Source: Minisyncoccota bacterium (GTDB taxonomy: Bacteria; Patescibacteriota; Minisyncoccia; Phycocordibacterales; JBAZVT01). From it: 64,000 nucleotides of DNA. Below, one piece after another: positions 13,504 through 30,094 of the stretch (position 1 is the stretch's first letter; every line of letters begins with the position of its first letter). Both the position numbers and the translations under genes were made by a program. The stretch covers positions 1,880 through 65,879 of the forward strand of contig JBAZVT010000003.1 in NCBI GenBank assembly GCA_041660745.1, given 5' to 3'. The notes under the pieces are model-generated. The model had not been told where the DNA came from. It saw only the letters and a list, made by a program, of their open reading frames with translations, and searched no databases.

Positions 13504-13728
13504 TTAGTCGATGGGAATATCTAATATTTTTCCAGGGGAGTGATGTCCAGAAATAATACGTATTTTTTTTGGCGTAATGTTAAAATGCTCCGCGATTATT
13601 TCTATAACTCTTCTATTTGCGCGATTATTTTCTGCTGGTTCTCGTACGGATATATTAAAATGATCCGTGCTTTTTTGTGTAAGAGTATCTTTTTTTGAGT
13701 CGGGAGTGACGCGAACTTTTATATACAT
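13504..13728 (-). CDS. DUF167 (YggU-like) family protein
   Basis: MYIKVRVTPDSKKD...ENNRANRRVIEIIAEHF...IISGHHSPGK matches the UPF0235/DUF167 pattern. Confidence 0.75.
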   Translation of the reverse strand: MYIKVRVTPDSKKDTLTQKSTDHFNISVREPAENNRANRRVIEIIAEHFNITPKKIRIISGHHSPGKILDIPID

Positions 13729-13932
13729 ACAGGCTATCATATCAGAAAAAAATATTGTTTGTCATGGAATAATGCCCTTGCACATTTTTATATTTCGTTT
13801 TGATTTTTTAATTACAAAATTGCCGAAGTGGGCCATTTGTGATGACAATACTTTTTTAAATAAAATAAATTAACACATTCTTAATTAACCGTTCACCGCA
13901 TTCTCACTCTTTTGTTTTAATAATTACCCATG

Positions 13933-14009
13933 AATTATGAAATCCCATTCCTTGTTGCACCAGACTTTTTAAAAAAGTTTTGGCGTGCCGGGGCGCGGAT
14001 TTCATAATT
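13933..14009. repeat. Perfect 13-bp inverted repeat with a 51-nt spacer (MITE-like or long hairpin)
   Basis: AATTATGAAATCC (13933-13945) pairs with GGATTTCATAATT (13997-14009). Confidence 0.7.
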
Positions 14010-14073
14010 TAAAAAGGTCGGCGAAAATAATTTCTTTAGGTTTTGTATTACTACTTTATTTTAAAAATATATT

Positions 14074-14730
14074 ATGAAAAAAATTTTTGCTTTCACTTCA
14101 ATTATTGCTTTAGCTCTTGTTTTTGCTCCAGCGGCATCTCATGCAGCTTGGAGTAATGACGTAAATATCACGACAACGAATTCTGCAGACATTGTTAATT
14201 CCTTTAATGTATCCGCACACACGGGTGACAATGTCTCAAAAAGTGGTTCTGGAGGTGCGTCTGGGGGTGGTGGTTCAGTAACAAATTCTGGCAGTGCTAA
14301 CACAGGTGGGGCTGGAGGAGCTGGAGGTGCAGGCGGAGAGGGGGGTGTAATTGCAACTGGTGATGCTTCCGTATCAGTTCTGGTCACCAATATAGCAAAT
14401 GATACTGACATAGAGGTTGATTCAACTGCATTGGCGGAGGATGCTTCCGATAACGATGTAAATATTATTACATCAAATACAGCAGCGCTACGAAATGAAG
14501 GAGTTCTATCAGCGTTCACTGGCTCAAATAAGGTAAAAGCTGGTTCAGCATCTAGTGATTTGTCTGGCACTGGTGGCAGTGTTGATTCAAGTGGTAATGA
14601 AAATGTCGCCGGTGCTGGTGGCGCCTCTGGAGCAGGAGGTATGGGTGGATCTATTGTAACTGGTCATAGCACTGTATCTGCAGATGTTATGAGTATTGTT
14701 AATATGACGGTTAAGCGTGTTATGAGATAA
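14074..14730 (+). CDS. Secreted Gly-rich protein made of two tandem copies of a bipartite repeat (TGxN and TGDA motifs)
   Basis: Signal peptide MKKIFAFTSIIALALVFAPAASHA. Unit 1 runs NDVNITTTNSADIVNSFNVSAHTGDNVS..(poly-Gly)..VIATGDASVSVLVTNIAN. Unit 2 runs NDVNIITSNTAALRNEGVLSAFTGSNKV..(poly-Gly)..IVTGHSTVSADVMSIVN. Confidence 0.8.
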   Translation: MKKIFAFTSIIALALVFAPAASHAAWSNDVNITTTNSADIVNSFNVSAHTGDNVSKSGSGGASGGGGSVTNSGSANTGGAGGAGGAGGEGGVIATGDASVSVLVTNIANDTDIEVDSTALAEDASDNDVNIITSNTAALRNEGVLSAFTGSNKVKAGSASSDLSGTGGSVDSSGNENVAGAGGASGAGGMGGSIVTGHSTVSADVMSIVNMTVKRVMR

Positions 14731-14825
14731 CTACTTTTGTCGTCGGAGGAAAGGGATTTTTCCCTTCCTTCGGCAAGGTTTTGATGCGATGTCAAAACCT
14801 TGCCGAAGGAAAACCTTCCAATTCT

Positions 14826-15365
14826 ATGAAAAAAGCATCATATATTTTCTGTTGTGTGCTGGTGTATTCTGGCTTCTATACTGCACTGATAGTATCGGCA
14901 GCTTCTTCCTCTGTGGTTAATTCAATCACGATTACTTCAGAAACTGGGGGTAATACTGTATTGGGCGGTGAAGAAAGTCGGGGTACTTCTAATACACATA
15001 TCCAGGCAAAGACAATTATAGATGGTGTTGTAGTAGAGGATATTAATCAGAACTATTCTTCTACGAGTCCGGTTAATTTTAAAGAAACATACAATCAGAA
15101 TATTGGATCGGGAAATGAAACGGAGACAGTGAAAACAATTATAAAAGTTCAGGCGCAGACAGGTCAAAGTTCATTGGTGGAAGATTTTAATAAAAAGAAA
15201 GCGGCGACATCAACAGCCACAACGTCTCTCGCACGTCCTGTGAAGACAACGCAAGATGGTCACGTTGCGGCTTCGAGTTCAGTATTATTAGCCGAAGGGG
15301 GTTTGAAAGCGCGAGGCCTTCTTCAACAATTTATATCATATGTATTTTCAATCTTTCGTTTCTAA
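14826..15365 (+). CDS. Secreted hypothetical protein with one TGxN half-repeat
   Basis: Lies in ORF 14781..15365, with the likely start at MKKASYIF. Has a signal/anchor segment, and NSITITSETGGNTV matches the first repeat motif of the flanking genes. Confidence 0.65.
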   Translation: MKKASYIFCCVLVYSGFYTALIVSAASSSVVNSITITSETGGNTVLGGEESRGTSNTHIQAKTIIDGVVVEDINQNYSSTSPVNFKETYNQNIGSGNETETVKTIIKVQAQTGQSSLVEDFNKKKAATSTATTSLARPVKTTQDGHVAASSSVLLAEGGLKARGLLQQFISYVFSIFRF

Positions 15366-18090
15366 ACATATTGTTTCACAAGGCAGAGGGATTGTTTCCT
15401 TCTGTATAATTTTTTCTTTGCTCTTGGCCCAAGGTGGTGCGGTTATTGTTGCAGGGGCACAAACACCTGATTCTAGTTTAGGTACGACAACAGAGTCTAG
15501 CACCATAACAGAAGCTGCTATTGTGCCAGAGGAAAATGATTCTGTGACGTCTATTACGACTGGTGACGCATCTGCGGAGAGTAGTGTGGAAACTGGAACA
15601 AATACCAATCTTATTTCTGAGGGGCAGAGTACATCTTCCTCGGACACCCTAATGGCAACGAGTACACACGATTCTTTATTAGAAGTGGCTACGACTAGCG
15701 CAACTACTTCTTCCGATACCACTACCACAGGCACAAGCACGTCTCTAGTACCTGATGAGGGTACAGAGGTTATTGTGGACACAACAAGTACGTCCACTAT
15801 TGTAAATAATGCCACAACTACTGCAAATACAGGTGTAAATGAAATTCAAAACGCAACATCGACCACGGCAACAAGCACTGCCACAAGTACAGCGGTTATC
15901 GATACTGGTGATGCGGCGGCTAGTACAAATATAATTAATGTTGCCAATGTTAATGTGTTTGATTCTAATGGAATGATCATGCTTCTTAATAGTTTATCTG
16001 GTATGACGGGTAATGTTGATTTGCGAGATGCACTCTCGGGAATTACTTTTGAATCATTCTGTGGCGAGGGGTGTGATGGAACGAGTACACCTTTATCTGC
16101 TCTCATTTCAAATAATAGTACATCAACAATTGATAATAACATTGTTGTTGGTGCTCAAACGGGGAATAACGGTATTTCTGGACCAGGCACTGACGGAACT
16201 ATTATGACTGGGGATGCGTATGCGGCAGCCAATGTGGTAAATATGGCAAATACAAATATTGTTGATTCAAATTATCTCCTCTTTGTTTTTAATGGGCTGG
16301 GAAATATGATTAATGGTGATTTTATTTTGCCGAGCGCAGGATTCTTCTCTAACTTTTTTTCTGGAAGTTCAGGAAGTAGTATGTCGGGGCAGTCTACTCC
16401 CGCAGTCTTATCTTCCACAACTGATCTAGATATACAAAATGAGAATTCGTCGATAATCAATAATTCCGTTGATGTTCATGCGGGCACGGGGGATAATAGC
16501 GTGTCGTCTGAAATGGGATCTACAACAGCTTCTAGTAGTATTGTAACGGGAGACGCACAGTCTGGAACAAATATTTTTAACGAGACTAATAGTAATCTTG
16601 TCGGCGGCGGATCGTTCATGGTACTTTTTAGAGTTTTTGGAAAATGGAGTGGAAATGTACTAAATACTCCAGACGGAATTCAATGGAAAGAAACACCTCA
16701 TGGGGTTGAACTTGTTGGAGATGTTCCTTCTGTTCTTGATTCAAGCGAGACAGATTCATCTGATCAAAATATATCAATTTCTAACAACAATAGTTCAAGT
16801 GTCACAAACAATATAGAGGTGTATGCGTTGACCGGAGATAATAAAATTACGGACAAAACTGGAAACTCTGAGATTGAGACTGGAGATGCATATGCAACAG
16901 CGAACGTAGTCAATATTACTAATACCAATATTGTTGGACGTAACTGGATTCTCGCAATCATTAATATCTTTGGTGATTGGGGAGGGAATATTTCTTTTGG
17001 TCAACCTGATTTGTGGGTTGCGGGGGAAGTGGAATCCCCTGGAAAGATTACGCGTGGTTCAGAACTAAAATACACATTTACTATTACAAACAAAGGCGAT
17101 GCTCCCGCGCATGATGTTGTGTTAAAGAATGTTTTTGATAGTCCATACGTGTACTTTGGAGAGAGATCAACTGATGTTCCTAATAATATGTCTGACTGGA
17201 ATATTGGAACATTGGCACCACAACAAACTGTTACTGTAGAAAAAGTGGCAACTGTAGACACGGGCTTGCCACGAGGGTCAACTCCCGTCTCGTCTGAAAT
17301 TTCTGTGCAGGGGAATGAAACTGATGCAAATACAGTAGATAATAGTGACGTTATATCATTTGTAGCTTCCGGATCTACGTCTTCAAGGGGTGGGAGTAGA
17401 CCTCGAGAAACAAAAATGCCATTACCAATACTTCTTGTTTCTACGACAAATGATGCGCTGACGACGCCTCTTATGGCTACTGCAAGTAGTAGTGTAAATT
17501 ATACTATTACAATAGAAAACAATGGGGATACTTCGTATAATTCCATCCTTACAAACACACTCAAGGATAGTTCTGGGGGTATTGTTAGTCAGGAACAGTG
17601 GAATTTGGAAATGATTGCTCCGCGTGAAGAAGTTTCTGTTTCATATACAGCTATCTTTGGCACAAGTACACCCCCCGGAGTGTATACCAATTATGCTCAG
17701 GTGGTCGCGTCCTCTTCGGAACAACTTGGGCAGTCTGTTGTCTCAAATGTGGCGACGAGTGCTGTGGTTATTCTTAGCCCAGAGGTCTTTAATGCAGGAT
17801 TTTCCTTTGCCACAACCACCCCTGTTCTTTCTACAGAGAACATTGAGCCACTTGCAGGGGCTATTTCAGACTCAAACATAGTTGATTCGTCCCCAGACGC
17901 TACTGCTGTGGAAAAAATAGATACTATAGTAAACAATCAGGTTGCAAATGTGGGAAGCGCGTGGAATTTTGTAGTGAGTCCATATTGGCTCATTTTCCCA
18001 ATACTTGGACTGATATCACTGGCATTATTAAAAAAGAAGGGTAGTGTGAGACAGTTTGCGAGGATGAGAAATAAGTTTACGGTTTGGTAA
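15340..18090 (+). CDS. 916-aa surface protein: Thr/Ser-rich region, at least 5 TGDA repeats, two DUF11-like Ig-fold repeats, and a C-terminal hydrophobic anchor
   Basis: N-terminal signal segment. Repeats are ITTGDASAESSVETGTNTNL, IDTGDAAASTNIINVANVNV, IMTGDAYAAANVVNMANTNI, IVTGDAQSGTNIFNETNSNL and IETGDAYATANVVNITNTNI. The DUF11-like segments are LKYTFTITNKGDAPAHDVVLKNVF and VNYTITIENNGDTSYNSILTNTL. The C-terminus is WLIFPILGLISLALLKKKG. Confidence 0.85.
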   Translation: MYFQSFVSKHIVSQGRGIVSFCIIFSLLLAQGGAVIVAGAQTPDSSLGTTTESSTITEAAIVPEENDSVTSITTGDASAESSVETGTNTNLISEGQSTSSSDTLMATSTHDSLLEVATTSATTSSDTTTTGTSTSLVPDEGTEVIVDTTSTSTIVNNATTTANTGVNEIQNATSTTATSTATSTAVIDTGDAAASTNIINVANVNVFDSNGMIMLLNSLSGMTGNVDLRDALSGITFESFCGEGCDGTSTPLSALISNNSTSTIDNNIVVGAQTGNNGISGPGTDGTIMTGDAYAAANVVNMANTNIVDSNYLLFVFNGLGNMINGDFILPSAGFFSNFFSGSSGSSMSGQSTPAVLSSTTDLDIQNENSSIINNSVDVHAGTGDNSVSSEMGSTTASSSIVTGDAQSGTNIFNETNSNLVGGGSFMVLFRVFGKWSGNVLNTPDGIQWKETPHGVELVGDVPSVLDSSETDSSDQNISISNNNSSSVTNNIEVYALTGDNKITDKTGNSEIETGDAYATANVVNITNTNIVGRNWILAIINIFGDWGGNISFGQPDLWVAGEVESPGKITRGSELKYTFTITNKGDAPAHDVVLKNVFDSPYVYFGERSTDVPNNMSDWNIGTLAPQQTVTVEKVATVDTGLPRGSTPVSSEISVQGNETDANTVDNSDVISFVASGSTSSRGGSRPRETKMPLPILLVSTTNDALTTPLMATASSSVNYTITIENNGDTSYNSILTNTLKDSSGGIVSQEQWNLEMIAPREEVSVSYTAIFGTSTPPGVYTNYAQVVASSSEQLGQSVVSNVATSAVVILSPEVFNAGFSFATTTPVLSTENIEPLAGAISDSNIVDSSPDATAVEKIDTIVNNQVANVGSAWNFVVSPYWLIFPILGLISLALLKKKGSVRQFARMRNKFTVW

Positions 18091-18241: not shown

Positions 18242-18274
18242 AAAAGCCGCCTGAGTACAGGCGGCTTTTCTTGT
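18242..18274 (+). terminator. Terminator after the 916-aa gene
   Basis: AAAAGCCGCCTG pairs with CAGGCGGCTTTT (loop AGTA), followed by CTTG. Confidence 0.75.
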
Positions 18275-20165: not shown

Positions 20166-21134
20166 TTAACTTAATATAATATTAAATATATAGCCCGTCG
20201 CAATAATCCCTGTAGCGACTATGCCAGCAAAAATGAGAATAAGTTGGGTTTTCATAACCTTCTTTAATATGATAAATTCGGGTAATGATAGTGCGGTGAC
20301 TGACATCATGAACGCCAACGCTGTCCCTACACTGACTCCCTTTTCCAAAAGAACACTCACAAGAGGAATGATGCCTGCCGCATTTGAATATAGTGGTATC
20401 CCTATAATTACTGCAACAGGGACGCTGTACCAGTGAGATGAGCCAATAATAGCAGTCAGGGCACTCGCTGGAACATAGCCATGAATAAGTGCTCCCAATC
20501 CGATGCCGACCAAGAGATAGGGCCAGACTTTTTTGATAATACCCAGTGTGTATTCGGAAGCAAAGTAGGCTCGTTTGGAGACGCTTATTTTTGTTTCTTC
20601 AAAATGAGCTGAAATTTTTTGTTTAAACACAAAGTCTTCGATGAGGTTTTCTGGTTTTAGGCGTCCAATGATAATACCACTCAGTATCGCGATTATTAAT
20701 CCTGTGATGACATAGAGGAGTGCAATTTTCCAACCAAACATTCCCAATAGAAGCACAAGAGCGACTTCGTTAATCATTGGAGATGATATGAGAAAAGAAA
20801 ATGTTACTCCAAGTGGCACCCCTGCCTGTATAAAACCTAGGAAAAGGGGAATAGCACTACAAGTACAGAATGGAGTAATGATTCCAAATAAAGACGCCAA
20901 GATATTACCAACGAATTCATTTTTTCTTACGAGAATACTACGTATTTTTTCCGCGGGTATAAAAGTTCTTACAAAAGAAATGGTGAAAATGATAATGACG
21001 AGCAGGAGAAGTATTTTGATTGTGTCATATATGAAGAAGTTCACAACGTGTGCAATGTGTGTTTCTGTCTGGATGTTTAAAATAGTAAAAGTTAGAAAGT
21101 CTGCAACAATTTTAATAGGATAAAATATGTCCAT
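20166..21134 (-). CDS. Predicted permease (YraQ/ArsP-like, PF03773-type)
   Basis: 8-10 TM segments. The Cys motif PFCTCSAIPLF is typical of this permease family, and the gene is the last in an ArsR-regulated redox operon. Confidence 0.75.
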   Translation of the reverse strand: MDIFYPIKIVADFLTFTILNIQTETHIAHVVNFFIYDTIKILLLLVIIIFTISFVRTFIPAEKIRSILVRKNEFVGNILASLFGIITPFCTCSAIPLFLGFIQAGVPLGVTFSFLISSPMINEVALVLLLGMFGWKIALLYVITGLIIAILSGIIIGRLKPENLIEDFVFKQKISAHFEETKISVSKRAYFASEYTLGIIKKVWPYLLVGIGLGALIHGYVPASALTAIIGSSHWYSVPVAVIIGIPLYSNAAGIIPLVSVLLEKGVSVGTALAFMMSVTALSLPEFIILKKVMKTQLILIFAGIVATGIIATGYIFNIILS

Positions 21135-21146
21135 GTAAATAAATTA

Positions 21147-21389
21147 TTAAGCAGACTGTTGTAAAATTATATTTTTTATTTTCTCCATATCCGCCGTTGC
21201 TCCAACCAAGACAACCTTATCGTTAATGACAAGCACGGGGCTCTGTAAAAGTCCCATTGCCACTATTTTCTGAATATCGCTTATATATTCGATTTCTGCC
21301 GTAATACCCATATCTCTTACGGTAGTTTGTACCAACTCAAACATTTTTTTACATGTAGGACATCCTGAACCAAGCACTTGGATTTTCAC
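21147..21389 (-). CDS. Thioredoxin-fold redox-active disulfide protein (CxxC)
   Basis: MKIQVLGSGCPTCKKM is the N-terminal CPTC motif of the small 'redox-active disulfide protein 2' family. Confidence 0.8.
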   Translation of the reverse strand: MKIQVLGSGCPTCKKMFELVQTTVRDMGITAEIEYISDIQKIVAMGLLQSPVLVINDKVVLVGATADMEKIKNIILQQSA

Positions 21390-21401
21390 GAGATATAGAG
21401 A

Positions 21402-21641
21402 TTATTTAGCGAGTAATGATTTAAATACTTCTGGTTGAAAACCAACAATGATATTGTTATCTATTTGAATTACAGGCACGCCCATCTGACCGCTTTTTTC
21501 TACCATTTCTTCACCAGCCTTTCTATCTTTGCTAACGTCAATATCTTCAAAGGGGACATTATTTTCTTTAAAGAAATCTTTTGCGTAAACACAGTATGGA
21601 CATGTTGGCGTTGAATAGACTTTTACGGTGTGGTTTTTCAT
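21402..21641 (-). CDS. Glutaredoxin-like protein (NrdH/Grx family)
   Basis: VKVYSTPTCPYCVYAKDFF carries a CPYC active site, and GVPVIQID is also present. Confidence 0.85.
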   Translation of the reverse strand: MKNHTVKVYSTPTCPYCVYAKDFFKENNVPFEDIDVSKDRKAGEEMVEKSGQMGVPVIQIDNNIIVGFQPEVFKSLLAK

Positions 21642-21670
21642 ATTGTTTTTTAATTATTGTTAATTTGTAA

Positions 21671-21943
21671 TTATTTGTATTTACAGATCAATTTTTTAAG
21701 ATCTGATACAAAAGGTTTGTCGGGAAGTTGATAAAAAGTACATTTGCCTTCTTGTGTGGGGTTAAGTAAGCCGTCGCGTTCCATAATGTGTAAGTGATGG
21801 GATACAATTGCGACGCTCATGGCGAGTTCTTTTGCAATGTCTGATACGCAAATTTTTTTATTATTAAAAATAACGCATAGAATTTTTAGACGGTTTTCTT
21901 CACCAACAGTCTTTAGTGCTTGTGCTAGTTCGTTCAAATGCAT
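21671..21943 (-). CDS. ArsR/SmtB-family transcriptional regulator
   Basis: Winged-HTH region LKILCVIFNNKKICVSDIAKELAMSVAIVSHHLHIMERDGLL. Confidence 0.88.
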   Translation of the reverse strand: MHLNELAQALKTVGEENRLKILCVIFNNKKICVSDIAKELAMSVAIVSHHLHIMERDGLLNPTQEGKCTFYQLPDKPFVSDLKKLICKYK

Positions 21944-25792: not shown

Positions 25793-26392
25793 TTACCCAT
25801 GCTTGACTTGCGGAGTGAGGAATCTTTGCCCGCTCGCTTTTTTCTGACGCATCCACTTCGTGATCATCCGGTCGTAGTCCGAGGTAGCTGCAAAGACCTT
25901 GATCACCAACCTCTCGCGCTGGTCTTCCGAGATAGCGCCGGTTACAGTCAGTGATGCAACCACCCACTCATAATCGGTAGGATCAATGACCGGGATTGTC
26001 GAGATCCCGTTCTTGGACGCTGCGCGGATGAGCGAGGGGCCGCCGATATCAATCTCCTCAATGTCAGGTTTGTTCTTGAAGTCGTACAGATTGACCACGA
26101 CGAGATCAATCAGGTCGATGTGGTGCTCGACGAGCGCCGCAAGGTGTGCGGGAATGGCTCGTGCGGCGAGTATGCCGCCGAAGATGTTTGGATGGAGTGT
26201 CTTGACACGGCCGTCCAGCATTTCGGGAAAGCCCGTGACCTGCTCAATCGGAGTTACCTCGATGCCGACTGCCCGCAGTGCTTTCGCCGTCCCGCCGGTA
26301 GAGATGAACTCCCAACCTAGGGTGGCGAGCGGAAGAAGTTTTTCCAACCCACTCTTGTCCGTAACCGACACCAGTGCTCTTGGCATTGCCAT
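25793..26392 (-). CDS. Stand-alone IMP cyclohydrolase (MGS-like N-terminal domain of PurH) in a high-G+C islet
   Basis: ALVSVTDKSGL...ISTGGTAKAL...GRVKTLHPNIFGGILA...VVVNLYDF...IDIGGPSLIRAASKN is the PurH IMPCH domain. The ORF stops after the inter-domain linker, and no AICAR transformylase domain follows. SD is AAGGAG. Confidence 0.85.
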   Translation of the reverse strand: MAMPRALVSVTDKSGLEKLLPLATLGWEFISTGGTAKALRAVGIEVTPIEQVTGFPEMLDGRVKTLHPNIFGGILAARAIPAHLAALVEHHIDLIDLVVVNLYDFKNKPDIEEIDIGGPSLIRAASKNGISTIPVIDPTDYEWVVASLTVTGAISEDQRERLVIKVFAATSDYDRMITKWMRQKKASGQRFLTPQVKHG

Positions 26393-26469
26393 GAGAACTC
26401 CTTTTTAGGATTTTCTGCCACTGAAAGCCGTGGCCGCTTAACCGTTCTGAATGTAAGACTACGTATTTA

Positions 26470-27575
26470 ATTTTTTATGTCAAGATTTTGTACTCGTCCA
26501 CCACATATGAGACTCTGACGCTGGTAATGTAGACACAATATACCTCAAAGGAGATACAAGACCAAGCGACCAATGAGGACGCCTAGTGTTGTACCAAAGT
26601 AACCAATTAATGAGAGCTTCATTAAAAGCATCAATGTCATGAGCTAAAAGTTTTCTGTTTCTGTTAACAAAAGCTTCCACAACAGTTCGGTTGAATCGTT
26701 CAACTTCAGCGTTCATTTTTGGCGATCTTGGATATGTGTGAAAATGAACGATGTTGTTCTTTTCAAGCAGAACGTCAAAGTGGTCAGCAAACTCACTACC
26801 ATTGTCTGTTTGCACATGCGTAACAGGAAGTGGTGCAACATGTTTAAACTTCATCATGAAGTCAGCAGATGCTTTTGATGAATGAGAAGTATACGCATAT
26901 GCAAAAGCAAATTTTGATTCGCAATCAATACCAGTGAGCAAATATCTTTTAATACCATCGGTGAAGCGGATGACCGAATCTGCTTTAACTAGTCCTCCTT
27001 CGTGACCTTTAGAACGCAGTTTCTTGCGTTTAACTCTGATTTTCTCTCGAAAGGTATCTGATTTTGCATAGTATGAAAGTTTCGTATATTTTGGAAGTTT
27101 TCCTTGTTTCTTGAGATCATTTAACATTCGACCGACAGTAGATGCGGAGAGATCGGCAACCTTGTCTTCTTTCATGAGTACCGCCAGTTTGTCTTTGGAA
27201 AGTCTTGGATCATTCTGGCGTTCCTTGAGAATGAAATCTTCTACAACTTTTGGGATGACACGTTTTCTTCTTTGTTTAGGAGCAGTACTTTTTTTGTTGA
27301 GAAACTCCAGTTTTCCCATACCATCTCGAAGTTCTTTTTGCCAGCGAAAAAGAGTTGGTCTTGAAATGCCAAAGGCTTCTTTAGTGGCAGTTGTTCCATA
27401 CTTCTCCCAAAACGCTAATATCCTGCACCTTTCTTTTGCGGTTTCGCTAATCATATACTTGAAGCGTATCACACGCTCCCAAGTACTAATGAAGCCCTTT
27501 GTTCCTCTAAATTTATTGAAAATGCGCATATGAAAACTCTAATTAAAGAGTCTCATATGTTTCTGAACTTATGCA
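26470..27575 (-). mobile_element. IS481-like insertion sequence (boundaries uncertain)
   Basis: A single DDE (rve) transposase ORF. The only terminal symmetry found is the 12-bp inverted repeat CATATGAGACTC (26506-26517) / GAGTCTCATATG (27549-27560). No target-site duplication was identified. Confidence 0.6.
26480..27529 (-). CDS. IS481-family transposase (HTH plus integrase-core DDE domain)
   Basis: N-terminal HTH region and an rve core (TGIDCESKF...VQTDNGSEF...NAEVERFNRT...YNTRRPHWSL). Confidence 0.88.
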   Translation of the reverse strand: MRIFNKFRGTKGFISTWERVIRFKYMISETAKERCRILAFWEKYGTTATKEAFGISRPTLFRWQKELRDGMGKLEFLNKKSTAPKQRRKRVIPKVVEDFILKERQNDPRLSKDKLAVLMKEDKVADLSASTVGRMLNDLKKQGKLPKYTKLSYYAKSDTFREKIRVKRKKLRSKGHEGGLVKADSVIRFTDGIKRYLLTGIDCESKFAFAYAYTSHSSKASADFMMKFKHVAPLPVTHVQTDNGSEFADHFDVLLEKNNIVHFHTYPRSPKMNAEVERFNRTVVEAFVNRNRKLLAHDIDAFNEALINWLLWYNTRRPHWSLGLVSPLRYIVSTLPASESHMWWTSTKS

Positions 27576-27670
27576 GGTTATGGCAAAAAACGCCTTAGCA
27601 GGAGAGCCCCAAGACTAACTGTTGAAAAAAGCCTCAAAAGTGCTAAGGTGTATACATACAAACTTATACC

Positions 27671-29047
27671 ATGAGAATTCTATTCATCTCAAACGACCTT
27701 ATAGCTGGAAATCTCGCCTATCGCCTCAAACAAGAAGGTCATGATGTTAAGTTGTTCGTTGAAGAACCCCTCAGTAAAGAATGCTTCTCTGGATTAGTAG
27801 AAAAAATCGAAGATTGGAAAAAGGAACTTGATTGGGTTGGAAAAGACGGGTTGATTGTTTTTGATGACGCAGGATACGGTGAAATGCAAGAAAAGCTTCG
27901 TAACGATGGCTATACTGTATTTGGCGGTTGCTATGTTGGCGACAAACTTGAAACAGAAAGAGAGTACGGCCAAGCAATCTTCAAAGAATACGGCCTCAAG
28001 ACAGCTCCCCTCAAAAACTTTTCTTCTGTCCAAGATGCAATTGCATATGTAAAGAAAAATGGTGGGTCCTGGGTTATCAAACAAAACAACCACAACTTCA
28101 AACATCTCAGCTACGTGGGTAAATTTGAGGACGGAAGAGATATTGTTAACGTTCTAGAAAACTACGAACTACGCAACGGAGAGATAGACAAAATTACTCT
28201 GCATAAAAAGATTGAAGGCGTGGAAATAGGAGTGGGTAGATATTTTAATGGAACAGACTGGGTAGGGCCAATAGAATATAATATAGAACATACGAAACTA
28301 TTCCCTGGCTGTATTGGACCGACAACGAGCGAAATGGGAACTCTTGCTTGGTATGACGATGATGAATCAGGCAAACTTTTTAAAGAAAATTTAAATCTTC
28401 TCAAGCCATTCCTGCAACATATAGGCTATCGAGGTGATTTTGAAGTCAATTTTATAGTTAACGAGACGGGTGCATATCCACTGGAAGCAACCGCGCGTCT
28501 CGGCACCCCCATCATTCATTTGCATGATGAGATACACGAGAGTCCATGGGGAGAATTTTTATATGCCATCGCCCGTGGTGAACAATATGATTTAAAATAC
28601 AAGAAAGGATTTGGTATTGTCGTTGTTATTGCCACTCCCCCATTCCCATACTCAGAACGTGCTTACAATAGACTTTCAAACAACAACTCATACCGCTACA
28701 ACATATATTTTGATCACGAGATGAGCGCAGAAGAAATGAGCCATATTCATTTTGAAGAGGTGGCTGTGCGTGCTACTGATCCAAAACAACTCTATGTTGC
28801 AGACAGCCGAGGTAATGTTCTCTATGTTACTGGTATGGGACAAACAATCCAGGAAGCACGGGATATCACCTACGAAAAAATAAAACCGATTGTTATTCCT
28901 AAAATGTTCTACAGAAACGATATCGGAGTCGAATTTGAAAAAAATAGTCTTGGAAAACTTAAGGAATGGGGCTACATAGCCGACGGAGAAAAAAGTGAGG
29001 TAGCAGAAATGAACACAATTAGTGAGAAAACGATCGTAGGAATATAA
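27671..29047 (+). CDS. PurD-like ATP-grasp enzyme (phosphoribosylamine-glycine ligase homologue)
   Basis: Collinear with PurD: MRILFISN, LETEREYGQAIFKEYGLKTAP, GGSWVIKQNN, EHTKLFPGCIGPTTSEMGT and FEVNFIVNETGAYPLEATARLGTP. It is divergent, so true GARS activity is uncertain. Confidence 0.6.
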   Translation: MRILFISNDLIAGNLAYRLKQEGHDVKLFVEEPLSKECFSGLVEKIEDWKKELDWVGKDGLIVFDDAGYGEMQEKLRNDGYTVFGGCYVGDKLETEREYGQAIFKEYGLKTAPLKNFSSVQDAIAYVKKNGGSWVIKQNNHNFKHLSYVGKFEDGRDIVNVLENYELRNGEIDKITLHKKIEGVEIGVGRYFNGTDWVGPIEYNIEHTKLFPGCIGPTTSEMGTLAWYDDDESGKLFKENLNLLKPFLQHIGYRGDFEVNFIVNETGAYPLEATARLGTPIIHLHDEIHESPWGEFLYAIARGEQYDLKYKKGFGIVVVIATPPFPYSERAYNRLSNNNSYRYNIYFDHEMSAEEMSHIHFEEVAVRATDPKQLYVADSRGNVLYVTGMGQTIQEARDITYEKIKPIVIPKMFYRNDIGVEFEKNSLGKLKEWGYIADGEKSEVAEMNTISEKTIVGI

Positions 29048-29063
29048 TTCGCATCCAAAAGAA

Positions 29064-29092
29064 CAAAAAACCGCCACACGGCGGTTTTTTGT
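29064..29092. terminator. Bidirectional terminator
   Basis: An A6 run, then ACCGCC paired with GGCGGT, then T6. Confidence 0.7.
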
Positions 29093-29104
29093 TACAGACT
29101 ATTT

Positions 29105-30094
29105 TTATGTTTCTAAAAGCTCTCGTATCCCATCTTCAATATTCACTGTTGGCTTCCAGTCGAGAAGTTTCTTAGCAAGCGCATTATCAGCAAGAGTGTG
29201 TTTCGGTTCTAAACGTCCAGAAATATGTTCAACGGGACCGCCAATAAGCTCGGCAATTTTATTAATTGAAACATTATTCCCCGCCCCAATATTTATCACC
29301 TCACCCTTCCCCACCTTATCACTTTCCATTGCCAAGATATTTGCTCGCACAACATCACGCACATGAGTAAAATCGCGAGTCTGTTTACCATCTCCAACAA
29401 TAGTCATTGGCTTCCCTACCTGTCGCTGTTTCAAAAAACTCGGGATTACAAGTGCATATGCACCCTCAGAACTCTGCCTCAAACCATATACATTAAAATA
29501 TCTGAGACTGACTGTAGGCACCCTGTACACCTCGCTCCATGTCTTGCAATATATTTCTCCAACATATTTTTGTAAGCCATAGGGACTCTTGGGCATTGCA
29601 GTCATAGACTCAACCAGTGGCATTGTTGGTTGGTCACCATATACAGAACTTGAAGCAGAATAAATAAGTTTTTTGACCCCTGCCCATCTACATGCCTCAA
29701 GCACATTTATTGTTCCGCCAATATTAACTTCGTTTGTTTCCTGAGGATGTTCTATAGAATACTGAACGCGAGGCAAAGCAGCACAATGGAAGACGTACTG
29801 AACATCTTTAAATACTTTCTTTATTGATTCCAGACTACACACATCGGCAATATGAAGTGTTGCTTTTTTGTTCACATTTTCTCTCCTCCCTTCAGATAAA
29901 TTATCTATAATATGCACATTGAAACCTCTTTCAACTAATGCATCAACTATATTAGAGCCAATAAAACCGGCACCGCCGGTTACAACAACTTTTATAGTTG
30001 ATGGCGGGATAGTGACTCGTTTTAGTCTACTTCGTTTTGTATTTTTATTTTTCATTATCATCATAGGAAGAGACATTATAACGTATCTAGACAA
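29105..30094 (-). CDS. NAD-dependent sugar-nucleotide epimerase/dehydratase (SDR), paralogue A
   Basis: VVTGGAGFIGSN Rossmann motif and the YGLQK catalytic Tyr-x3-Lys. The true start is probably an internal Met (MIMKNKN...). Confidence 0.9.
   Translation of the reverse strand: MSRYVIMSLPMMIMKNKNTKRSRLKRVTIPPSTIKVVVTGGAGFIGSNIVDALVERGFNVHIIDNLSEGRRENVNKKATLHIADVCSLESIKKVFKDVQYVFHCAALPRVQYSIEHPQETNEVNIGGTINVLEACRWAGVKKLIYSASSSVYGDQPTMPLVESMTAMPKSPYGLQKYVGEIYCKTWSEVYRVPTVSLRYFNVYGLRQSSEGAYALVIPSFLKQRQVGKPMTIVGDGKQTRDFTHVRDVVRANILAMESDKVGKGEVINIGAGNNVSINKIAELIGGPVEHISGRLEPKHTLADNALAKKLLDWKPTVNIEDGIRELLET

What the first reader, a model, noticed from the sequence alone, without database searches (positions are those of the whole stretch)
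14074..18090. Three-gene cluster of secreted proteins sharing an unrecognised bipartite Asn/Thr/Gly repeat: candidate surface-fibre system
All three adjacent genes have N-terminal signal/anchor segments and reuse the same two short motifs.

- Motif 1, N-x-x-x-[VIT]-x-[AS]-x-T-G-x-N-x-[VI], occurs as NSFNVSAHTGDNVS, NEGVLSAFTGSNKV, NSITITSETGGNTV, NNATTTANTGVNEI, NNIVVGAQTGNNGI, NNSVDVHAGTGDNSV and NNIEVYALTGDNKI.
- Motif 2, [IV]-x-T-G-D-A-x-[AS]-x-x-N-[IV]-x-N-x-x-N-x-N, occurs as IATGDASVSVLVTNIAN, IDTGDAAASTNIINVANVNV, IMTGDAYAAANVVNMANTNI, IVTGDAQSGTNIFNETNSNL, IETGDAYATANVVNITNTNI and ITTGDASAESSVETGTNTNL.

The 218-aa protein is just two units joined by poly-Gly linkers. The 916-aa protein has at least five units, then two DUF11-like Ig repeats, then a C-terminal hydrophobic helix plus KKKG.

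I do not recognise the repeat as a named family. A small secreted subunit next to a large anchored protein built from the same ladder-like Asn/Thr/Gly repeat resembles subunit-plus-anchor arrangements in beta-solenoid or functional-amyloid fibres. Curli CsgA/CsgB is only an analogy here, not a homology claim. The cluster lies directly downstream of an ECF sigma/anti-sigma and MacAB export cluster.
Basis: partly seen in the sequence, partly recalled or inferred. Interest (0 to 1): 0.68.

Follow-up and report, generated by a model that had tools for sequence, protein, structure and literature searches.

The report
Conserved three-gene surface module in Paceibacteria
Three neighbouring genes of an uncultured ultra-small (Paceibacteria/CPR) bacterium encode an envelope-anchored protein, a small adaptor and a probably abundant small secreted protein, all built from one undescribed Asn/Thr/Gly-rich beta unit; the trio is conserved in many related genomes and most likely forms a self-assembling surface structure.

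Summary
Genes A (14074-14730), B (14826-15365) and C (15340-18090) share one roughly 55-aa unit. Profile comparison gives A vs C E=8.7e-15 and B vs A E=1.6e-9. Pfam, NCBIfam and PDB sequence searches find nothing for the unit.

The A-B-C order is conserved in Paceibacteria. C relatives occur in 133 species-representative genomes, and an A gene lies directly upstream in 71 of 73 informative loci. The A profile finds 1,816 cluster representatives.

C is envelope-anchored. It has four units plus one half-unit, two DUF11/CLIPPER Ig domains, then a TM helix; 26 of 50 orthologs carry a peptidoglycan-binding domain. A is only a signal peptide plus two units. B has one unit plus a C-terminal amphipathic tail.

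A stable RNA hairpin follows A in most loci, whereas B overlaps C. This suggests much A and equimolar B and C.

Best reading: a Sec-exported, self-assembling surface fibre or stack. This is unproven. The ECF/MacAB neighbourhood is not conserved. The family is new, and the logic is chaplin- or curli-like.

The parts
14074..14730 (+). Gene A: 218-aa secreted two-unit protein, the proposed major subunit. It has a signal peptide (aa 1-24, AXA site ASHA|AW), unit 1 (aa 28-116) and unit 2 (aa 127-218), and ends ...VNMTVKRVMR.
   Evidence: ORF and motifs. It is 100% identical to NCBI 'hypothetical protein WC757_01020, Candidatus Paceibacterota bacterium'. Family alignment is A4. The A profile finds 1,816 cluster representatives. 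There is no Pfam or NCBIfam hit. The AlphaFold model has pLDDT 62.5.
14155..14421 (+). A unit 1. Strand 1 plus the T-G-x-N turn is NDVNITTTNSADIVNSFNVSAHTGDN. A Gly-rich loop follows. Then come the T-G-D-A turn and strand 2, VIATGDASVSVLVTNIANDTDIEV.
   Evidence: Covariation pairs strand 1 with strand 2 in antiparallel register: I40-A108, N42-N106, F44-V104, V46-V102, A48-V100.
14452..14727 (+). A unit 2, with the same layout as unit 1. Its motif 2 is degenerate (IVTGHSTVSADVMSIVNMTV).
14745..14819 (+). Stable RNA stem-loop(s) between A and B, proposed as an attenuator or a 3' mRNA stabiliser.
   Evidence: MFE is -48.1 kcal/mol with z -6.97. An equivalent hairpin of -25 kcal/mol or stronger follows the last A gene in 86% of 73 loci, against 7% of in-gene controls; the structure is conserved but the sequence is not. 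A T-run follows in only 11 of 73 loci. There is no Rfam match.
14826..15365 (+). Gene B: 179-aa protein counted from ATG 14826. It has a signal peptide or anchor (aa 1-25), one unit (aa 27-73, SSSVVNSITITSETGGNT...HIQAKTIIDGVVVEDI), a variable region, and a conserved amphipathic or hydrophobic C-terminal tail (aa 160-179, LKARGLLQQFISYVFSIFRF).
   Evidence: and alignment A6. hhalign against the A family gives probability 96.3%, E=1.6e-9. The public gene call is 169 aa.
15340..18090 (+). Gene C: 916-aa envelope-anchored protein. Its start overlaps the end of B by 26 nt.
   Evidence: 56 homologs; 133 genomes; AlphaFold mean pLDDT 76.8; B-C overlap in 36 of 48 loci, mode 26 nt.
15535..15633 (+). 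C N-terminal orphan half-unit (motif 2 only, aa 66-98), followed by a Ser/Thr-rich stretch of low model confidence.
   Evidence: pLDDT is 91-94 for aa 70-90. The half-unit is present in the ortholog consensus.
15766..17010 (+). C units 1-4 (aa 143-220, 253-331, 362-462, 477-557). Each has motif 1, a short loop, motif 2 and an extra hydrophobic strand or hairpin that A lacks (for example SNYLLFVFNGLGN, RNWILAIINIFGDWGGNISFGQPD).
   Evidence: The modal counts in orthologs are 4 motif 1 and 5 motif 2. hhalign maps the two A units onto C units 3 and 4.
17011..17775 (+). Two Ig-like DUF11/CLIPPER stalk domains (aa 558-680 and 698-812).
17791..18042 (+). Low-confidence linker (aa 818-878), then the C-terminal transmembrane helix plus basic stop-transfer (aa 882-901, YWLIFPILGLISLALLKKKG).
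   Evidence: Among orthologs, 23 of 83 have a C-terminal hydrophobic segment, and 26 of 50 have a PG_binding_1 domain.
18246..18272 (+). Intrinsic-terminator-like hairpin plus T-run after C (GCCGCCTGAGTACAGGCGGCTTTTCTT), marking the end of the operon.
   Evidence: Read directly from the sequence. The consensus scan did not list it.

Best explanation
A-B-C is a self-contained, Sec-exported cell-surface assembly module specific to Paceibacteria (Parcubacteria, CPR).

**C: the base.** It is fixed in the envelope by a C-terminal TM helix, or in many orthologs by a peptidoglycan-binding domain. Two CLIPPER/DUF11 Ig domains and a flexible linker lift it through the wall. At its distal end it carries a stack of four and a half copies of a new roughly 55-aa unit.

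**The unit.** Each unit is a long strand / T-G-x-N turn / loop / T-G-D-A turn / long strand. It folds back on itself so that small hydrophobic residues and one invariant Asn from each strand face each other. Successive units are predicted to stack in register, like a flattened beta-solenoid with one rung per unit.

**A: the extending subunit.** It is nothing but a signal peptide plus two such units, with no capping element. It is proposed to be made in excess, because a conserved stable RNA hairpin lies directly after its gene. It is proposed to add onto the open distal end of C's stack and then onto itself, extending a fibre or stack.

**B: the adaptor.** It has one unit plus a C-terminal amphipathic helix and is translationally coupled to C. 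It is proposed to be a 1:1 adaptor, nucleator or cap at the base.

**Shown here:** homology of the units, conserved synteny, anchoring domains, the hairpin, the B-C overlap, and the intra-unit fold-back.

**Inferred:** in-register stacking, polymerisation of A on C, the role of B, and the biological purpose. The purpose is probably attachment or matrix formation on the surface of these episymbiotic cells.
For: **Units are homologous and belong to no known family**
- hhalign A vs C gives E=8.7e-15, and B vs A gives E=1.6e-9.
- There are no Pfam, NCBIfam or PDB sequence hits.

**Conserved three-gene order**
- C relatives occur in 133 GTDB species-representative genomes, all labelled Patescibacteria or CPR groups.
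- An A-type gene lies directly upstream on the same strand in 71 of 73 loci.
- A B-type gene sits between A and C in at least 48 loci.
- No other neighbour is conserved, and no sortase, usher, SipW or Csg-type gene is present.

**C is an anchored surface protein**
- DUF11/CLIPPER is found in 44 of 50 orthologs and PG_binding_1 in 26 of 50.
- A C-terminal TM segment is present in 23 of 83 orthologs, including the window copy.
- CLIPPER is a stalk domain of fibrillar adhesins (PMC12617251).

**Expression architecture**
- A hairpin follows A in the window at -48 kcal/mol, z -7.
- The hairpin is structurally conserved in 86% of loci against 7% of controls.
- B overlaps C in 36 of 48 loci, with a mode of 26 nt.

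**Structure**
- The C model has pLDDT above 90 over most of the repeat region and is all-beta.
- The A model shows the same strand pattern.
- Mean-field DCA on 216 A-family proteins gives a continuous i+j=150 ladder (V41-V109, N43/V45-V105, V47-A103, A49-A101, N35-N112/T114) at about 8-9 sd above background. This places the invariant Asn of the two strands opposite each other.

**Fixed unit numbers and no caps**
- A has exactly two motif 2 in 68 of 84 proteins, C has a mode of 4+1, and B has one.
- Mature A begins and ends at the strand edges.
Against: - No multimer prediction, experiment, expression data or proteomics supports polymerisation or high abundance of A.
- I could not inspect model coordinates, so in-register stacking is inferred and not observed.
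- The dominant i / i+98 covariation is confounded by concerted evolution of the two units. Within-protein unit identity is 56%, against 43% between orthologs, and the loops behave the same way.
- The i+j=const ladder fits an H-bonded beta-hairpin ribbon as well as a beta-arch.
- C's units carry extra hydrophobic strands that A lacks, so A may not be able to continue C's stack.
- The hairpin after A rarely has a T-run (11 of 73), so its effect on stoichiometry is assumed.
- C has only two stalk domains, which is short for a fibrillar adhesin.
Confidence: 0.4

Rival explanations
1. Finite tip complex of a host-attachment adhesin. C is the functional adhesin, with its N-terminal repeat domain as the binding module. 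A and B are accessory paralogs that dock onto it in fixed stoichiometry, or act as soluble or decoy binders. No polymer is formed.
For: - C has the tip-stalk-anchor layout of fibrillar adhesins (PMC12617251).
- The C N-domain is predicted as a compact, confident monomeric domain with extra hydrophobic strands.
- Unit numbers are fixed.
- B and C are translationally coupled.
- Paceibacteria are attached episymbionts or parasites (PMC10936435).
Against: - A has no elements other than two uncapped units.
- A is often duplicated, with 2-4 copies in 8 loci.
- The conserved hairpin decoupling A from B and C suggests non-equimolar production.
- No ligand-binding fold was recognised.
Confidence: 0.28
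2. Two-component S-layer-like coat. C is the envelope-anchored stalk, comparable to SlaB of Sulfolobus, and A tiles into a 2-D lattice held on C. B helps attachment.
For: - There is an anchored stalk protein plus a small, probably abundant secreted partner in one operon.
- Stalk-plus-canopy S-layers are established (PMC6911244, listed; details from my own knowledge).
Against: - A is only about 20 kDa when mature, much smaller than typical S-layer proteins.
- The module was found in 133 species genomes, so it is not universal in the class.
- No SLH or other known S-layer domain is present.
Confidence: 0.15
3. Non-assembly function of the Asn/Thr ladder surface. Examples are binding of ice, mineral, Ca2+ or polysaccharide by flat Thr/Asn-rich beta faces, as in beta-solenoid ice-binding or RTX-like proteins.
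For: - Strand faces are rich in Thr, Asn and Ser.
- T-G-x-N turns recall Ca2+-binding turns of RTX and MpIBP repeats (from my own knowledge).
Against: - There is no sequence match to RTX or ice-binding families.
- The module occurs across many habitats and lineages.
- This reading does not explain the three-gene architecture.
Confidence: 0.07
4. Compositional artefact. The shared motifs would be chance similarity of low-complexity Gly/Asn/Thr-rich secreted proteins.
For: - The proteins are compositionally biased: G 16.5% in A, and S+T 26% in C.
- The only Pfam hit of A is a sub-threshold glycine-rich family.
Against: - Profile-profile E-values of 1e-9 to 1e-15 come from the non-Gly strands.
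- There are invariant columns across 26-50 orthologs.
- The covariation ladder is strong.
- Synteny holds in 71 of 73 loci.
Confidence: 0.01

Closest known systems
Streptomyces chaplins (long ChpA-C with two chaplin domains plus a sortase anchor; short secreted ChpD-H)
   Same: A wall-anchored protein with several copies of a small beta domain is found together with small secreted proteins made only of that same domain. The organisms are monoderm, export is by Sec, assembly is spontaneous, and there is no dedicated assembly machine. This comparison rests on my own knowledge.
   Different: - There is no sequence relation; no DUF320/chaplin Pfam hit was found.
- There is no LPXTG motif or sortase.
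- Anchoring here is by a TM helix or PG_binding_1 plus an Ig stalk.
- The genes here form a fixed A-B-C operon.
Curli CsgA/CsgB (Curlin_rpt, PF07012)
   Same: A major subunit and a surface-associated minor paralog are encoded side by side. Repeats have a strand-turn-strand form with Gly turns and Asn/Gln ladders, predicted to stack as a flattened beta-solenoid.
   Different: - There is no Pfam Curlin_rpt hit.
- No CsgG/E/F-type export genes are present.
- The host is monoderm.
- The unit is about 55 aa plus a variable Gly loop, compared with about 22 aa in curlin.
Fibrillar adhesins with CLIPPER (DUF11) stalks (PMC12617251; PMC9210967)
   Same: C has a signal peptide, a distal non-stalk domain, CLIPPER Ig domains and an envelope anchor.
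   Different: - C has only two stalk domains.
- The distal domain is a new repeat shared with two co-operonic small proteins, which is not a feature of described fibrillar adhesins.
- The window copy lacks the Lys and Asp of the isopeptide triad in Ig domain 2.
SufB/SufD-type right-handed parallel beta-helix (for example 1vh4, 4dn7, 5awf)
   Different: - The Suf proteins are cytoplasmic Fe-S assembly proteins.
- This is similarity of architecture class only.
HET-s prion-forming domain: two pseudo-repeats per molecule joined by a flexible loop, each forming one solenoid rung
   Same: A has two homologous units per chain. The two units co-evolve (56% identity within a protein against 43% between orthologs). 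This would give two rungs per subunit.
   Different: - HET-s is cytoplasmic and fungal, with 21-aa rungs and no homology.
- The analogy is from my own knowledge.
WxL / Csc cell-surface complexes of Firmicutes (TM-anchored WxLIP plus small secreted WxL proteins)
   Same: A gene cluster encodes a C-terminally TM-anchored Ig-domain protein plus small secreted partners. There is a Foldseek hit of C's Ig pair to WxLIP 9i1y, E=2.6e-7.
   Different: - The hit covers only the generic Ig tandem.
- No WxL, DUF916 or DUF3324 domains are present.

Membership tests
Curli (CsgA/CsgB) | Curlin repeat (Pfam PF07012) detectable in the subunits | tested here: not met
   There is no Curlin_rpt hit for A, B or C at E<=1, nor in 26 A-family members at E<=0.1. 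hhalign of the A family against E. coli CsgA gives probability 2%.
Curli (CsgA/CsgB) | Dedicated export and assembly genes (csgG/E/F) in the locus | tested here: not met
   Clustering the neighbours of 83 loci shows no conserved gene other than A, B and C. The remaining neighbours are housekeeping genes.
Curli (CsgA/CsgB) | Amyloid fibre formation nucleated by the minor paralog | not testable with these tools
   This needs ThT, CD or EM on purified proteins, or multimer modelling.
Fibrillar adhesin with CLIPPER/DUF11 stalk | CLIPPER (PF01345) Ig domains | tested here: met
   [not shown]
Fibrillar adhesin with CLIPPER/DUF11 stalk | Cell-envelope anchor | tested here: met
   The window copy has a TM helix plus KKKG. 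PG_binding_1 is present in 26 of 50 orthologs.
Fibrillar adhesin with CLIPPER/DUF11 stalk | Long stalk of many tandem repeats | tested here: not met
   Only two Ig domains are present, at aa 558-680 and 698-812.
Fibrillar adhesin with CLIPPER/DUF11 stalk | Recognised adhesive tip domain | tested here: inconclusive
   [not shown]
Fibrillar adhesin with CLIPPER/DUF11 stalk | Intramolecular isopeptide triad (Lys / Asp or Glu / Asn) in the stalk domain | tested here: not met
   In Ig domain 2 the orthologs have near-invariant K, D and N. The window protein has T702, N739 and N784.
Chaplins | Chaplin domain (DUF320) and LPXTG anchor on the long forms | tested here: not met
   There is no such Pfam hit. 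No LPXTG is seen in the C termini.
TasA/TapA/SipW fibres | TasA/camelysin (Peptidase_M73) fold and a dedicated SipW signal peptidase in the operon | tested here: not met
   There is no Pfam hit. No signal peptidase is found among the conserved neighbours.
Beta-solenoid / parallel beta-helix architecture (structural class, not a homologous family) | Repeated units stacked in register into parallel sheets | tested here: inconclusive
   - The strong i / i+98 covariation is confounded by concerted evolution.
- Model coordinates could not be inspected.
Beta-solenoid / parallel beta-helix architecture (structural class, not a homologous family) | Each rung folds back so that inward-facing residues of the two strands pack together, forming an Asn ladder | tested here: met
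   There is a DCA ladder at i+j=150 involving alternate conserved positions V41, N43, V45, V47 and A49 with V109, V105, A103 and A101, plus N35 with N112/T114. Scores are 1.5-2.6 against a background sd of 0.28. On that register, invariant N42 and N106 of A fall opposite each other. A hairpin ribbon would give the same pattern.
RTX / Ca2+ beta-roll | GGxGxDxUx nonapeptide repeats | tested here: not met
   There are no RTX/HemolysinCabind Pfam hits. The Gly loops have 3-residue periodicity, not 9-residue.

The most novel reading that the evidence does not exclude
A previously unrecognised class of self-templating cross-beta, functional-amyloid-like surface fibre in monoderm CPR bacteria. An envelope-anchored protein displays a built-in 4.5-rung template. 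A two-rung secreted subunit polymerises on that template. A one-rung adaptor controls nucleation or capping. No dedicated secretion or assembly machinery is involved. The module is widespread in Paceibacteria and is possibly the structure that tethers these ultra-small cells to their hosts.
Probability: 0.3. Interest if true: 0.78.

Novelty: new variant of a known kind. Interest (0 to 1): 0.58.

Why it matters
Paceibacteria (Parcubacteria) are among the most abundant and least understood bacteria. They are tiny, mostly uncultured, and thought to live attached to other cells. Almost nothing is known about the proteins on their surface.

This work defines a conserved, self-contained three-gene surface module. 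It was found in at least 133 species-level genomes, and the small-subunit profile finds about 1,800 cluster representatives. The module is built from a domain absent from Pfam, NCBIfam and the PDB.

The module gives concrete, testable targets for three kinds of experiment:
- recombinant assembly assays
- antibodies or tags for cryo-ET
- markers for metaproteomics

If A does polymerise on C, this would be a new and very economical route to a surface fibre. It would also add a new family of beta-solenoid building blocks of interest for protein materials.

Tried and rejected
- **The search for related loci with the 33-sequence alignment** failed because no stretch was conserved enough. It worked with 8 closer sequences.
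- **Word-indexed homolog searches with A** returned only 4 and then 35 proteins, because Gly-rich words saturated the candidate list. The exhaustive HMMER search was needed to see the family size.
- **My iterative HMM classification of A- and B-type neighbours** drifted: the B model absorbed A. I replaced it with motif counts and position.
- **PDB sequence search with the C profile** gave only spurious designed-armadillo hits.
- **Curli homology** is rejected.
- **Linkage to ECF sigma or MacAB** is rejected.
- **The hairpin as a canonical terminator** is not supported, since few loci have a T-run. **The hairpin as a known RNA family** is rejected.
- **i / i+98 covariation as proof of stacking** is rejected because of concerted evolution.
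- **Five literature searches** (a sixth, concerned CLIPPER/DUF11) and one paper check found no description of this family. Cluster look-ups gave only 'hypothetical protein'.

Full report
**1. What is in the window**

Three same-strand ORFs occupy 14074-18090:
- A: 14074-14730, 218 aa.
- B: longest ORF from 14781; the likely start is ATG 14826, giving 179 aa.
- C: 15340-18090, 916 aa.

A carries two motif-1/motif-2 pairs, and its second motif 2 is degenerate (IVTGHSTV). B carries one motif 1 and a degenerate motif 2. C carries an N-terminal orphan motif 2 (aa 72) and four complete pairs, with motif 1 at 156, 266, 375 and 490 and motif 2 at 187, 288, 401 and 512.

Pfam finds only DUF11 in C (558-671, E=1.7e-12), plus a sub-threshold glycine-rich match in A. 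NCBIfam finds nothing. An A-family HMM hits only these three ORFs in the 64-kb window.

A is 100% identical to a 'hypothetical protein' of a Candidatus Paceibacterota MAG.

**2. The units are homologous**

Profile-profile comparison gives probability 98.4%, E=8.7e-15 for the A family against the C family. It aligns A's two units to C's units 3 and 4. The B family against the A family gives probability 96.3%, E=1.6e-9.

The consensus unit from 26 A-family proteins has three parts:
- D-I-x-V-x-N-x-N-x-A-x-V-x-N-x-V-x-x-x-A-x-T-G-x-N-x-A.
- A Gly-rich loop of 0 to about 40 residues.
- G-G-x-I-x-T-G-x-A-x-A-x-x-x-V-x-N-x-V-N-x-N-x-T-x-V.

The Gly-rich stretch therefore lies inside each unit, not between units. 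Most A proteins have a C-G-C motif between the two units (67 of 84 contain CxC), but the window copy lacks it. Most end in ...T-R-[IV]-x-R.

**3. Distribution and synteny**

- The C repeat region finds 56 proteins in the word-indexed search. All are unnamed or 'hypothetical', and those with a taxon label are nearly all from Parcubacteria-type MAGs.
- A pattern scan of one genome per GTDB species finds 133 genomes with a C relative. The 80 loci kept are all labelled Patescibacteria or CPR groups: Zambryski-, Kaiser-, Giovannoni-, Taylor-, Yonath-, Nomura-, Wildermuthbacteria and Paceibacterota. Many TPA records carry the label 'uncultured Candidatus Saccharibacteria'.
- In 71 of 73 loci with at least 1.5 kb upstream, an A-type gene lies upstream on the same strand. 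A-type means at least two motif 1, at least one motif 2, and a signal peptide. Eight loci have 2-4 A paralogs.
- In at least 48 loci a B-type gene fills the slot between A and C.
- B proteins share a signal peptide, one unit (T-x-V-x-N-x-V-S-V-S-A-x-T-G-G-N ... S-V-x-V-x-T-x-V-N-G-x-V-V-E-D), a variable and often acidic region, and a conserved amphipathic or hydrophobic C-terminal tail (...F-x-K-I-F-K-Y-V-F-S-I-F or L-x-x-L-I-x-L-Y-V-S-L-L).
- No other neighbour is conserved. MacAB-type genes occur in 6-7 of 83 loci. The remaining neighbours are housekeeping genes: ValRS, TsaD, FtsZ, TrxB, Hsp20, a CAP-domain protein and an S8 peptidase.
- In the window, the ECF sigma, HlyD and ABC genes are real. 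However, a minus-strand DUF167 gene (13504-13728) separates them from A.
- An exhaustive HMMER search with the A profile finds 1,816 cluster representatives at E<=1e-3, of which 270 reach E<=1e-30. The ten looked up carry no functional name.
- None of the 26 A-family members matches any Pfam family at a meaningful level.

**4. C is envelope-anchored**

- The AlphaFold model of C used a 49-sequence MSA and has mean pLDDT 76.8 and pTM 0.65.
- It gives an N-terminal helix at 17-30, an all-beta repeat region with pLDDT mostly above 90, and two Ig domains at 558-680 and 698-812.
- It then shows a low-confidence linker at 818-884 and a C-terminal helix at 885-898 followed by KKKG.
- DUF11 has been renamed CLIPPER and shown to be a CnaA-like stalk domain of fibrillar adhesins that often contains an isopeptide bond (PMC12617251).
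- Of 50 orthologs, 44 hit DUF11 and 26 carry a C-terminal PG_binding_1 domain.
- 23 of 83 orthologs have a C-terminal hydrophobic segment like the window copy.

The family is therefore fixed to the membrane or wall at its C-terminal end, with the repeat domain distal.

**5. Expression architecture**

A 75-nt region between A and B (14745-14819) folds at -48.1 kcal/mol, z -6.97. Across 73 loci, the best 60-nt hairpin just after the last A gene is -25 kcal/mol or stronger in 86%. The figure is 7% for control segments inside C. The median energies are -29.4 and -16.0 kcal/mol. The sequences differ between loci, so it is the structure that is conserved.

Only 11 of 73 hairpins are followed by a T-run, and there is no Rfam match. 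I therefore read it as an attenuator or 3' stabiliser rather than a canonical terminator.

In contrast, B's stop overlaps C's start in 36 of 48 loci (mode 26 nt), and lies within 30 nt in nine more. This implies translational coupling. A terminator-like hairpin plus T-run follows C at 18246-18272.

My inference is that A is produced independently and probably in excess, while B and C are produced in equimolar amounts.

**6. Structure of the unit**

- The A model has pLDDT 62.5 and pTM 0.39. It has the same strand pattern as C's units: a strand of about 20 residues, the T-G-x-N turn, the loop, the T-G-D turn, an 11-residue strand, a turn, and a 5-residue strand.
- No solved structure therefore resembles the repeat domain closely.

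I then ran mean-field DCA on 216 two-unit A-family proteins (Meff 200).
- The strongest couplings are all i / i+98, meaning the same position in unit 1 and unit 2.
- These include loop positions, and within-protein unit identity (56% in the core, 63% in the loop) exceeds between-ortholog identity (43% and 41%). This signal is therefore largely concerted evolution and cannot prove stacking.
- After removing it, almost every top coupling obeys i+j of about 150 in unit coordinates: V41-V109, N43/V45-V105, V47-A103, V47/A49-A101 and N35-N112/T114. Scores are 1.5-2.6 against a background sd of 0.28.
- Each unit therefore folds back on itself about the centre of its loop. One face of strand 1 carries alternate conserved V, N, V, V, A, and it packs against one face of strand 2.
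- On that register, the invariant Asn residues (N42 and N106 in the window's A) face each other.
- This fits a beta-arch rung of a flattened solenoid, and equally fits a long hairpin ribbon.

**7. Mechanistic reading**

Shown here:
- A new unit is shared by three co-operonic secreted proteins.
- Unit numbers are fixed at 2, 1 and 4+½.
- C is anchored to the envelope.
- A is uncoupled from B and C at the RNA level, and B is coupled to C.
- There is no dedicated assembly gene.

Inferred:
- Units stack in register.
- C's distal stack is a built-in template.
- Mature A is two uncapped units and nothing else, so it adds end-on to C and to itself.
- B acts at the base as a 1:1 adaptor, nucleator or cap.

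I give about 0.4 to this fibre-or-stack model and about 0.85 to the weaker statement that A-B-C is a dedicated cell-surface complex. The rivals are a finite adhesin tip complex (0.28), an S-layer-like coat on a C stalk (0.15), and a ligand-, ice- or Ca2+-binding surface (0.07). Chance is excluded.

**8. Comparison with known systems**

The logic is closest to Streptomyces chaplins and to curli CsgA/CsgB. In chaplins, anchored multi-domain proteins act with secreted single-domain proteins of the same fold. In curli, a major subunit acts with a surface nucleator paralog, and strand-turn-strand repeats carry Asn/Gln ladders.

Membership of either family fails:
- There are no Pfam hits.
- hhalign against CsgA gives probability 2%.
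- There are no Csg export genes, no LPXTG motif and no sortase.

C alone resembles a short fibrillar adhesin with a CLIPPER stalk. The two-units-per-chain design with co-evolving units recalls HET-s. These comparisons come from my own knowledge except where a call is cited.

**9. Verdict**

This is a real, conserved and undescribed protein family and operon of Paceibacteria. Its assembly behaviour remains to be shown. I rate novelty as a new variant of a known kind and interest at 0.58.

Noticed in passing
window 14230-14350 and 14530-14650 (the Gly-rich loops inside A's two units); A-family loops in loci L001-L082: The Gly-rich loops are 40% Gly with a median length of 39 aa. They show a clear 3-residue periodicity of Gly: autocorrelation is 0.255, 0.233 and 0.204 at lags 3, 6 and 9, against 0.12-0.16 at other lags. 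They also have the highest pLDDT (74-80) in the A model. GGx triplets are what polyglycine-II helix bundles use, so the loops may be a small structured element rather than a floppy linker. Some orthologs (L001, L041) lack them entirely.
   Followed up: partly
window 17431-17775 (C Ig domain 2); alignment A7: Orthologs have a near-invariant Lys / Asp / Asn set (T-K-T ... L-x-D-x-L ... Y-T-N) at the positions expected for a CnaA/CLIPPER-type intramolecular isopeptide bond. The window protein has T702 and N739 in place of the Lys and Asp. This copy probably lacks the cross-link.
   Followed up: partly
A-family proteins (216 sequences; loci L001-L082 and P0057-P0229): The two units of each A protein are more alike than the same unit in different species: 56% against 43% identity in the core, and 63% against 41% in the loops. 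This is concerted evolution by gene conversion, or selection for self-similar rungs.
   Followed up: yes
window 13504-13728 (-): A small minus-strand gene encodes a 74-aa DUF167/YggU-like protein (PF02594 in the public gene call). It lies in the gap between MacB and A, so A-B-C has its own promoter region (13729-14073, AT-rich).
   Followed up: partly
It is a real cluster, but it is not conserved next to A-B-C in relatives.
   Followed up: partly
window about 26000-30000: GC skew changes sign from positive to negative, and cumulative skew peaks near 28 kb. This may be a replication origin or terminus, or a strand-bias switch.
   Followed up: no
window 20166-21943 (-): A small cluster lies on the minus strand. 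It holds an ArsR-like HTH regulator (21671-21943), an 80-aa thioredoxin-like protein with a CPTC motif (21147-21389) and a 322-aa multi-pass permease (20166-21134). The names are from reading the translations and were not checked against a library.
   Followed up: no
loci L004, L006, L007 and many others: Many TPA metagenome bins that carry the module are titled 'uncultured Candidatus Saccharibacteria bacterium'. Their A-B-C loci group with Paceibacteria-type loci, so the NCBI label may be a generic placeholder rather than evidence that Saccharimonadia carry the module.
   Followed up: no
loci L025, L018 and others, position +1 after C: A secreted subtilisin-like S8 peptidase (about 578 aa) follows C in 5 loci, and a CAP/SCP-domain protein (about 184 aa) follows it in 8 loci. 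The names are from reading the sequences and were not scanned. These may be occasional accessory partners.
   Followed up: no
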